NCBI RefSeq assembly: GCF_009914755.1
Contig: NC_060933.1
Reading direction: 5' to 3' (one strand)
DNA length: 64,000 bases
Source of the DNA: the human T2T-CHM13v2.0 reference genome, Homo sapiens
The notes under the pieces are model-generated. The model ran no database searches. It saw only the letters and a program-made list of their open reading frames with translations, and was not told where the DNA came from. The position numbers were made by a program, and so were the translations under genes. Of this stretch, positions 60,792 through 61,223 are shown piece after piece; within the stretch, counting starts at the first letter, position 1; the number at the start of each line of letters is the position of its first letter.

Positions 60792-61223
60792 TTTTTTTTT
60801 GAGATGGAGTCTCAAAGATGGAGAATTCCTCCAACCATGAGGAATTTGAACGCTTATCCCGAATAGTGGAAAATGAACGTCTCATGGAGTTAGGGCCTGT
60901 CACCACCTGGGGATCTACAGTCAGACATGGCATAGAGGATGCCCTCCCAGATCCCGCTCTGTCTCCCAGACTGGAGTGCAGTAGTGCCACCTTGGCTCAC
61001 TGCAACCTCCGTCTTCCGGATTCAAGCGATTCTCTGGCCTTAGCCTCCTGAGTAGATGGGATTACAGGCGCACACCACCACACCCGGCTAATTTTGTATT
61101 TTTACTAGAGATGGGGCTTCACCATGTTGGCCAGGCTGGTCTTGAACTCCTGACCTCAAGTGATCCACCTGCCTCAGTCTCCCAAAGTGCTGGGATCACA
61201 GGCATGAGCCAACATACCCAGCC
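60792..61223 (-). mobile_element. AluS-like element containing an internal foreign insert
   Basis: T-tail 60792-60800, terminal GAGATGGAGTCTC, insert, then Alu body resumes CGCTCTGTCTCCCAGACTGGAGTGCAGT; decayed TSD CACCACACAA / CACCCCATGA. Confidence 0.9.
60818..60957 (-). pseudogene. CACNA1E: Captured fragment of CACNA1E (Cav2.3) C-terminal coding sequence
   Basis: Minus strand translates [47 protein letters not shown] recall human Cav2.3 as [47 protein letters not shown]. Identification from memory; needs BLAT. Confidence 0.85.

What the first reader, a model, noticed from the sequence alone, without database searches (positions are those of the whole stretch)
60792..60975. A CACNA1E mRNA fragment embedded inside an Alu: likely RNA-templated capture
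Seen: the Alu end (minus strand ...GACAGAGCG GAGACTCCATCTC-polyA) is interrupted by ~140 bp of non-Alu DNA in the same orientation, with an open 46-codon frame and no poly(A) or TSD of its own. Recalled: the peptide matches the Cav2.3 C-terminus with 3 substitutions (one a CGT>TGT CpG decay), and DPQ|VVT (60907/60906) is the junction between the alternatively spliced 129-nt exon 45 and the next exon. CACNA1E is on chr1; nearby CACNA1B has a different sequence here. Both junctions show microhomology: GCG (Alu AGAGCG / Ala codon) and CTCCAT, present twice as TTCTCCATCTTTGAGACTCCATCTC. Inference: L1 ORF2p switched Alu RNA > CACNA1E mRNA > Alu RNA during insertion, or a later break was patched from spliced RNA/cDNA. 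Either way it would record an exon-45-containing transcript in ancestral germline or embryo. I know of no annotation for it.
Basis: partly seen in the sequence, partly recalled or inferred. Interest (0 to 1): 0.9.

Follow-up and report, generated by a model that had tools for sequence, protein, structure and literature searches.

The report
Spliced CACNA1E fragment inside an Alu
A 140-base copy of spliced calcium-channel (CACNA1E) messenger RNA sits inside an old Alu repeat on chromosome 9, most likely the scar of a chromosome break patched with reverse-transcribed RNA: real, probably neutral, and an example of a rare process that is already known.

Summary
A minus-strand Alu (61223-60792) is split 13 nt before its A9 tail by 140 nt (60957-60818). 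These align without a gap, 134/140, to the 3' end of the 129-nt CACNA1E exon 45 joined directly to the next exon. The 1,070-nt chr1 intron is missing, and the junction lies at 60907|60906. The peptide is 43/46 identical to Cav2.3 residues 1993-2038. No other copy exists in the genome. The insert has no poly(A) and no target-site duplication. It shares 3 nt (GCG) with the Alu at one junction and has 4 filler bases (CTTT) at the other. The Alu loses no base.

An RNA origin is close to certain. I favour (about 0.6) a later double-strand break in an existing Alu, sealed by end joining with a captured cDNA, i.e. a fixed class 2 templated sequence insertion. The grounds are perfect Alu colinearity, internal entry into both RNAs, and a substitution clock that puts the insert at about 0.4 of the Alu's age. 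That clock is borderline and depends on the reference set. A double ORF2p template switch (about 0.2) is not excluded, and primate orthologues would decide. This is a new member of a known kind, of modest interest.

The parts
60955..61223 (-). Alu, 5' part (both monomers, up to ...GACAGAGCG)
   Evidence: sequence. BLAST of this Alu gives 65 HSPs to other Alus in the window; it aligns to the consensus of 46 window Alus, with 17/232 non-CpG differences and 4/18 CpGs kept. The label AluS-like rather than AluY is from recalled diagnostic positions and was not tested by a call.
60955..60957 (-). GCG shared by the Alu (…GAGCG) and CACNA1E exon 45 (…CATGCGGGA…): 3-nt junctional microhomology
   Evidence: the three bases belong to both templates.
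60907..60957 (-). Copy of the last 51 nt of the 129-nt CACNA1E exon 45 (48 nt unambiguous, plus the shared GCG)
   Evidence: C1:181149153-181149205, 94%, E 3.9e-14; 3 differences, at 60937, 60927 and 60916; the chr1 exon is 100% identical to Cav2.3 residues 1967-2009.
60818..60906 (-). Copy of the first 89 nt of the next CACNA1E exon (exon 46 by inference from the numbering), joined directly to exon 45 with the 1,070-nt intron absent
   Evidence: C1:181150270-181150362, 97%, E 1.0e-35; 3 differences, at 60896, 60890 and 60838. The genomic alignments stop at the splice sites. The copy ends inside the exon's coding sequence, with no poly(A).
60814..60817 (-). Filler CTTT matching neither CACNA1E mRNA (which continues GGAGCG) nor the Alu. 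The adjacent G at 60813 is one base more than the Alu consensus has, so it is either a 1-nt duplication or a fifth filler base.
60792..60813 (-). Alu 3' end (13 nt, 60813-60801) and A9 tail (60800-60792)
   Evidence: it is colinear with the consensus of window Alus immediately after the break point.

Best explanation
An ordinary Alu (AluS-like) inserted here by L1-driven target-primed reverse transcription. Later, in a germ-line or early embryonic cell of a primate ancestor, the DNA of this Alu broke 13 nt upstream of its A-tail. The break was sealed by end joining that captured a short cDNA (137-140 nt) reverse-transcribed from an internal part of a spliced, exon-45-containing CACNA1E mRNA. 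One junction used 3 nt of microhomology (GCG). The other received 4 non-templated bases (CTTT). No Alu base was lost. The patch has since decayed neutrally (6 substitutions in 140 nt). In current terms it is a fixed, ancient 'class 2 templated sequence insertion', the mRNA counterpart of endonuclease-independent L1/Alu insertions and of NUMT patches.

Shown here: the RNA (spliced) origin, the donor gene and isoform, the junction anatomy, and uniqueness in the genome.

Inferred: that the Alu was already there, that a double-strand break was the entry point, which reverse transcriptase acted, and the cell type.
For: RNA origin:
- The alignment is ungapped, 134/140, to exon 45 spliced to the next exon. 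The genomic alignments stop at the splice sites and the 1,070-nt intron is absent.
- No processed CACNA1E pseudogene or second copy exists in the assembly; 3 of 3 candidates were scored, namely the window itself and the two exons.

Class 2 features:
- There is no poly(A), and the copy ends inside the coding sequence.
- There is no TSD (1 nt at most).
- The break site (…GAGCG|AGACTC…) is not a TTTT/A site.
- There is a 3-nt microhomology on one side and 4 added bases on the other.
- These are the defining features given for class 2 TSIPs. That review lists 'cDNAs (with several spliced exons)' among the donors (PMC5110952, whole text parts 1-2).

The Alu is colinear with the Alu consensus to the base across the break. 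A DNA-level insertion gives this for free. In primate NUMT patches, 54% of integrations lost no base (PMC2567098, abstract).

Clock:
- The insert has 4/128 non-CpG differences and keeps 3 of 5 unambiguous CpGs. The Alu has 17/232 non-CpG differences (14 of them private) and keeps 4/18 CpGs, measured against 46 unselected window Alus.
- The likelihood-ratio estimate of insert age over Alu age is 0.44 (95% CI 0.17-0.99, p 0.049), or 0.39 (p 0.021) with all 17 differences.
- Any change on the CACNA1E side would make the insert younger still.
Against: - No outgroup genome could be consulted, so 'Alu first, insert later' is not shown directly.
- The clock is borderline and depends on the reference. 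The separate Fisher tests are not significant (p 0.16 and 0.14; 0.31; 0.11 and 0.34).
- A second reference set of 29 Alus was chosen by similarity to this one. Dropping variants shared by more than 10% of them gives a ratio of 0.86 (p 0.75). I regard that count as an ascertainment artefact: each of those Alus shares only 1-6 of the 19 variants, and the mean pairwise correlation among the 10 common variants is -0.00. It still shows how soft the test is.
- The insert has the same orientation as the Alu. Template switching requires this, whereas a patch gives it only half the time.
- Microhomology and extra bases occur in both models.
- Nothing in the sequence identifies the reverse transcriptase (L1 ORF2p, Pol theta or another) or proves a two-ended break.
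Confidence: 0.62

Rival explanations
1. Double template switch during the Alu's own insertion. L1 ORF2p primed on the Alu RNA A-tail and copied 13 nt. It then added a few untemplated bases and jumped to an internal site of a CACNA1E mRNA, where it copied 137-140 nt. It returned through the GCG microhomology to the Alu RNA and finished the Alu. The Alu and the insert would then be the same age.
For: - The insert has the same orientation as the Alu, and the whole structure ends in one A-tail.
- The 3-nt microhomology sits at the junction where the second jump would have landed.
- Double switches giving tripartite retro-chimeras have been reported in fungi, mouse and (without TSDs) human (PMC2104539, passages).
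- L1 chimeras with Alu and with mRNA fragments are catalogued (PMC13174262, abstract and passages).
- The age test does not firmly exclude equal ages (upper CI 0.99; ratio 0.86 under one counting).
Against: - The enzyme would have to re-enter the Alu RNA at exactly the base next to the one it left. The Alu is colinear across the break with no loss or repeat beyond 1 nt. That is a coincidence no model of template jumping predicts.
- Both acceptor RNAs would be entered internally: CACNA1E inside its coding sequence, and the Alu 13 nt from its tail. In described chimeras, three different RNAs are fused in series, and the 5' partner such as U6 is '[12 protein letters not shown] full-length' (PMC13174262, passage). 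End-to-end jumping onto RNA 3' ends is the mechanism known in vitro (recalled, not read here).
- With an unselected reference the clock puts the insert at about 0.4 of the Alu's age (p 0.02-0.05).
- No TSD around the whole element could be recognised to tie the parts to one event. The best flank alignment is matched by 442 of 1000 shuffles.
Confidence: 0.22
2. The donor was DNA. The 140 nt were copied or captured from a CACNA1E processed pseudogene (retrocopy) that has since been lost or is absent from this assembly. The spliced structure would then be inherited at second hand.
For: A spliced structure alone cannot tell a cDNA from a retrocopy donor. Class 2 insertions and other filler DNAs can come from DNA fragments (PMC5110952; PMC2567098 abstract).
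Against: No such retrocopy exists in the complete assembly. The 148-nt query found only itself and the two chr1 exons. This reading needs an extra, unobserved element and its later loss.
Confidence: 0.05
3. The open frame is kept by selection, i.e. the fragment serves as a coding or exonised piece of a minus-strand transcript.
For: The frame is open for 73 codons from stop to stop (60996-60775). 43 of 46 residues are retained.
Against: - A frame copied from coding sequence stays open by default after only 6 substitutions.
- The changes are 3 non-synonymous to 3 synonymous, which gives no sign of constraint.
- The frame runs on into Alu and A-tail sequence.
- No gene is annotated here in the hub's table.
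- The fragment lacks any channel domain.
Confidence: 0.02

Closest known systems
Class 2 templated sequence insertions / TSIPs (Onozawa & Aplan; PMC5110952, read)
   Same: The donor lies on another chromosome and is left intact. The template is RNA-derived, and spliced cDNAs are listed among the donors. There is no TSD, no poly(A) and no TTTT/A site. The junctions show microhomology and non-templated bases. The size is within the experimental range (73-414 bp). The event must be germ-line or early embryonic to be inherited.
   Different: TSIPs were defined as polymorphisms in living humans. This one is about 4% diverged from its source and is presumably old and fixed, though its frequency could not be tested. 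It also lies inside an Alu with zero target loss.
Endonuclease-independent (non-classical) L1 and Alu insertions as double-strand-break patches (Sen et al. 2007, PMC1920257, abstract only)
   Same: Retro-derived sequence is inserted without the hallmarks of L1 endonuclease, and this is interpreted as break repair.
   Different: The filler here is a cellular mRNA fragment and not a retroelement. Those L1 events are associated with target deletions, whereas here nothing is deleted.
NUMT-mediated break repair in primates (Hazkani-Covo & Covo 2008, PMC2567098, abstract only)
   Same: Foreign filler is captured by end joining, with microhomology or added bases. 54% of those events show no deletion, as here.
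   Different: That filler is mitochondrial DNA. Here it is a reverse-transcribed nuclear mRNA.
L1-mediated chimeric retrogenes, including tripartite ones (PMC2104539, passages; PMC13174262)
   Same: Sequences copied from different RNAs are fused in the same orientation and end in a poly(A).
   Different: Known chimeras are serial fusions of different RNAs (A-B or A-B-C). Here the outer two parts are one Alu, continuous to the base. The middle part is an internal mRNA piece. No TSD can be assigned.
Classical processed pseudogene
   Same: The intron is removed and the origin is mRNA.
   Different: There is no 3' UTR, no poly(A) of its own and no TSD. Only 140 nt from the middle of the coding region are present.

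Membership tests
Class 2 templated sequence insertion | [quoted passage not shown] | tested here: met
   the donor is on contig C1 (chr1) and the insert on C9; both donor exons and the intron are intact.
Class 2 templated sequence insertion | No target-site duplication of 5 bp or more | tested here: met
   the Alu is colinear across the break, with at most 1 duplicated base (G).
Class 2 templated sequence insertion | No poly(A) tract or polyadenylation signal at the end of the insert, and not at a TTTT/A site | tested here: met
   the copy ends inside the exon's coding sequence and is followed by CTTT and then Alu. The break site is …GAGCG|AGACTC…
Class 2 templated sequence insertion | End-joining signatures at the junctions (microhomology, non-templated addition, microdeletion) | tested here: met
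   3-nt GCG microhomology at one junction and 4-nt CTTT filler at the other. There is no deletion.
Class 2 templated sequence insertion | Polymorphic among humans (the 'P' of TSIP) | not testable with these tools
   Only one human assembly is held. The 6/140 divergence suggests an old, probably fixed insertion.
Class 2 templated sequence insertion | The target existed before the insertion (empty site in relatives) | tested here: inconclusive
   No primate genomes are held. The clock ratio is 0.39-0.44 with p 0.02-0.05, but 0.86 with p 0.75 under another counting.
L1-mediated chimeric retrogene (template switching) | Parts in the same orientation, ending in a poly(A) | tested here: met
L1-mediated chimeric retrogene (template switching) | The whole chimera is flanked by one target-site duplication | tested here: inconclusive
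   the best alignment of the flanks scores 7, which 442 of 1000 shuffles reach. No TSD is recognisable for this old Alu.
L1-mediated chimeric retrogene (template switching) | Serial fusion of copies of different RNAs, each acceptor copied from its 3' end | tested here: not met
   the outer parts are one Alu, continuous to the base; the mRNA is entered inside its coding sequence (residue 2038 of 2313).
L1-mediated chimeric retrogene (template switching) | All parts arrive at the same time | tested here: inconclusive
   the estimates lean towards a younger insert but are not robust.
Classical processed pseudogene (retrocopy) | Intron loss | tested here: met
Classical processed pseudogene (retrocopy) | The mRNA 3' end with its own poly(A) tail and a flanking TSD | tested here: not met

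The most novel reading that the evidence does not exclude
The chimera was made in one step. An L1 ORF2p that had begun copying an Alu RNA made a short 'excursion' onto a nearby CACNA1E mRNA and then returned to the very next base of the same Alu RNA. That would be a natural record of copy-choice with return to the original template during target-primed reverse transcription. It would also be a route by which SINEs can take up internal modules from cellular mRNAs.
Probability: 0.2. Interest if true: 0.55.

Novelty: new member of a known kind. Interest (0 to 1): 0.3.

Why it matters
This is a clean natural example of a piece of spliced cellular mRNA written back into primate germ-line DNA without the usual retrotransposition hallmarks. 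Both junctions and the target are fully readable, because the target is an Alu whose original sequence is known.

Such fossils are the evolutionary counterpart of RNA-derived break patches seen in cultured human cells (PMC5110952). A genome-wide search for others (exon-exon junctions without poly(A) or TSD) would measure how often this happens over evolutionary time.

It also shows that an exon-45-containing CACNA1E transcript was present in a heritable cell lineage. By PMC3816731, Table 1, that form belongs to fetal brain and to pancreas, kidney and heart, and not to the dominant adult CNS variant. Cav2.3 has a role in mouse sperm (PMC11514763, passage), which makes male germ cells a plausible site.

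There is no sign of a present function. The locus is intergenic, downstream of WDR5 and RNU6ATAC.

Tried and rejected
1. CTCCAT as junctional microhomology: rejected. The two copies are separated by CTTT plus GAGA. On the + strand this appears as an 8-nt direct repeat AGATGGAG (60802-60809 and 60816-60823). Six of the eight bases come from CACNA1E, and the two extra matching bases are within chance (1 in 16).

2. Reverse transcription primed directly by the broken Alu end on the mRNA: I checked this by eye. Pairing the Alu end with the mRNA downstream of the copy (GGAGCG) predicts a different junction from the one observed, so the 4 filler bases are not templated by the mRNA.

3. TSD of the Alu: not recognisable (442 of 1000 shuffles do as well). 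It would not separate the two models anyway.

4. Dating with a second reference set: 29 Alus were taken from the genome by similarity to this one (40 scored of 4022 candidates, of which 29 were fetched besides the window's own). The set is biased by that selection. Sharing of the target's variants is scattered and not lineage-like. It gave the same direction (19/245 against 4/128, p 0.11). With shared variants removed the ratio rises to 0.86.

5. Slips: I set the start of the second exon one base too far, which produced a spurious 1-nt gap; this was corrected. One search stopped on a formatting error after printing partial counts and was redone.

7. Print record of this insertion:
- 'CACNA1E' + 'retrocop' found 1 unrelated paper.
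- There is no CACNA1E in the main text, and no CACNA1E or WDR5 in the 4 held supplementary files, of the LINE-1 chimera catalogue PMC13174262.
- The searches on templated insertions and RNA-templated repair listed nothing on it.
- The supplements of the TSIP papers were not examined. Repeat or retrocopy databases are not held here.

8. Rfam over 56000-64000 gave only U6atac.

Full report
**What is there**

On the minus strand an Alu begins at about 61223 and ends in an A9 tail at 60800-60792. Its body stops at …GACAGAGCG (60955). Its last 13 nt lie at 60813-60801. The stretch in between is not Alu.

I removed that stretch and aligned the Alu to 46 other near-full-length Alus from the same window. 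These were the 46 of 65 BLAST HSPs that covered at least 260 nt of the query, the target's own locus excluded. The Alu is colinear with their majority consensus exactly across the break. No Alu base is missing and one G is extra.

**Identity of the insert**

A search of the window's own 3.1-Gb assembly with 60813-60960 returned three candidates, and all three were scored:
- the window itself;
- C1:181149153-181149205 (94% identity, E 3.9e-14);
- C1:181150270-181150362 (97% identity, E 1.0e-35).

Reading the chr1 locus shows two exons:
- The first place is the 3' end of an exon of exactly 129 nt, bounded by cag| and |gtaaaa.
- The second is the start of the next exon, after tttccag|.
- The two are 1,070 nt apart.

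Window 60957-60818 aligns without a gap, 134/140, to the two exons joined. Alignments to exon-plus-intron stop at the splice sites (an off-by-one of mine was corrected). The exon-exon junction lies at 60907|60906.

The 129-nt exon translates to 43 residues that are 100% identical to Cav2.3 alpha-1E residues 1967-2009 (7xlq_A). The insert's 46 codons are 43/46 identical to residues 1993-2038 (E 4.2e-21). Cav2.2 (CACNA1B) reaches only E 0.088.

'Exon 45 (129 nts)' is the published name of the alternative C-terminal exon (PMC3816731, Table 1, passage seen; also the table passage of PMC7351833). Calling the following exon 'exon 46' is my inference from that numbering.

The fragment derives from spliced RNA.

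**Junctions**

At the 5' side (element orientation), GCG (60957-60955) belongs both to the Alu (…GAGCG) and to exon 45 (…CATGCGGGA…). This is a 3-nt microhomology.

At the 3' side the CACNA1E match ends at …TCTCCAT (60818). The mRNA would continue GGAGCG. The window instead has CTTT (60817-60814) and then the Alu tail. The tail starts with a G (60813) that the consensus does not require.

The insert has no poly(A), no TSD beyond that single G, and no TTTT/A-type site at the break.

**Decay**

The six differences from the present CACNA1E exons are at 60937, 60927, 60916, 60896, 60890 and 60838.
- Two are CpG transitions.
- Three change the protein (R>C, D>G, S>N) and three are silent.
- Four of the six source CpGs survive.

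This gives no sign of constraint. The 73-codon open frame is what a recent copy of coding sequence would show by default.

**Mechanism**

Two routes are compatible with an RNA donor.

(a) A later double-strand break in an existing Alu was sealed with a captured cDNA. The anatomy matches, point by point, the published definition of class 2 templated sequence insertions: no TSD, no poly(A), no L1 endonuclease site, and microhomology and non-templated bases at the junctions. Spliced cDNAs are among the known donors, and there is experimental evidence that such patches are RNA-derived (PMC5110952, parts 1-2 read). Loss-free capture is common in the analogous NUMT patches: 54% show no deletion (PMC2567098, abstract). 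Endonuclease-independent L1 insertions are the retroelement counterpart (PMC1920257, abstract).

(b) A double ORF2p template switch occurred during the Alu's own insertion. Tripartite chimeras attributed to double switches exist (PMC2104539, passages). L1 chimeras with Alu and with mRNA fragments are catalogued (PMC13174262).

Against (b):
- The enzyme would have to come back to the base adjacent to the one it left on the same kind of RNA.
- Both acceptors would be entered internally. Described chimeras fuse different RNAs in series, with the 5' partner typically complete (passage). That jumping goes onto RNA 3' ends in vitro is recalled knowledge, not read here.

For (b):
- The shared orientation is obligatory under switching but has a 50% chance under patching.

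**Relative age**

If (b) were true, the insert and the Alu would be equally old.

Against the unselected window set, the counts are as follows:

| Element | Non-CpG differences | CpGs kept |
|---|---|---|
| Alu | 17/232 (7.3%), of which 14 are private (shared by at most 10% of the other Alus) | 4/18 |
| Insert | 4/128 (3.1%) | 3 of 5 unambiguous |

The single Fisher tests are not significant (p 0.16 and 0.14; p 0.31 with the 14 private differences).

A joint likelihood with a shared CpG multiplier gives the following:
- insert/Alu age 0.44 (95% CI 0.17-0.99, p 0.049) with the 14 private differences;
- 0.39 (p 0.021) with all 17 differences;
- 0.40 (p 0.026) when all six CpGs are counted.

If only the two non-CpG changes that are certainly on the insert side are counted, the ratio is 0.29 (p 0.008).

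A second reference set of 29 Alus was drawn from the genome by similarity to this one.
- It gives 19/245 non-CpG differences and 6/18 CpGs kept (Fisher p 0.11 and 0.34), and a ratio of 0.42 (p 0.032).
- If variants shared by more than 10% of that set are discarded, only 5 remain and the ratio is 0.86 (p 0.75).
- That sharing is scattered: each Alu shares 1-6 of the 19 variants, and the mean pairwise correlation is -0.00. This is what selecting the set by similarity produces, so I give it little weight. It does show that the test is not robust.

Overall the clock leans towards a younger insert without settling the matter.

Taking all points together, I put (a) at about 0.6, (b) at about 0.2, a DNA donor such as a lost retrocopy at about 0.05, and the rest unassigned.

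**What it records**

By PMC3816731, Table 1, exon 45 is present in Cav2.3d (human fetal brain), Cav2.3e (pancreas, kidney, heart) and Cav2.3f. It is absent from Cav2.3c, the dominant CNS form.

To be inherited, the event must have occurred in a germ-line or early embryonic cell. Cav2.3-deficient mice are subfertile, with defective acrosome exocytosis (PMC11514763, passage). Expression in male germ cells is therefore plausible, though nothing here shows which cell it was.

**Novelty**

The phenomenon is known. This instance appears to be undescribed within the limits of what I could search:
- 'CACNA1E' + 'retrocop' returned one unrelated paper.
- There is no CACNA1E in the text, and no CACNA1E or WDR5 in the four held supplements, of the LINE-1 chimera catalogue.
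- The other searches turned up nothing on it.

Supplements of the TSIP studies and the retrocopy and repeat databases were not available to me. The insert is probably too short and too old to be in polymorphism lists.

I rate it a new member of a known kind, with interest of about 0.3. It is a tidy textbook-quality example, and it becomes more interesting only if primate orthologues show that the Alu and the insert arrived together.

**Limits**
- No primate or other human genomes were available.
- The subfamily label and the absolute ages rest on recalled knowledge.
- The clock uses very small counts.

Noticed in passing
window 58166-58291 (-): Full-length U6atac snRNA gene (Rfam RF00619, 145.8 bits, model positions 1-126 of 126), as in the hub's annotation (RNU6ATAC). 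An Alu (57863-58142, +) ends 24 nt from it.
   Followed up: partly
window 1-64000: Very high Alu density: 65 BLAST HSPs to this one Alu, often in back-to-back pairs (for example 5489-5777/5794-6079 and 15597-15883/15917-16209). The stretch 42000-54000, which holds the 3' WDR5 exons, has none.
   Followed up: no
window 60802-60809 and 60816-60823 (+): 8-nt direct repeat AGATGGAG straddling the filler at the 3' junction. Six of the eight bases in the second copy come from CACNA1E. It could be a trace of a short templated extension during end joining (polymerase-theta-like), or it could be chance (the two extra matching bases have odds of 1 in 16).
   Followed up: partly
L003 1423-1551 (G000:C1:181149075-181149203): CACNA1E exon 45 is a symmetrical, in-frame cassette (129 nt, 43 codons in frame from its first base). 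This fits its clean alternative use.
   Followed up: partly
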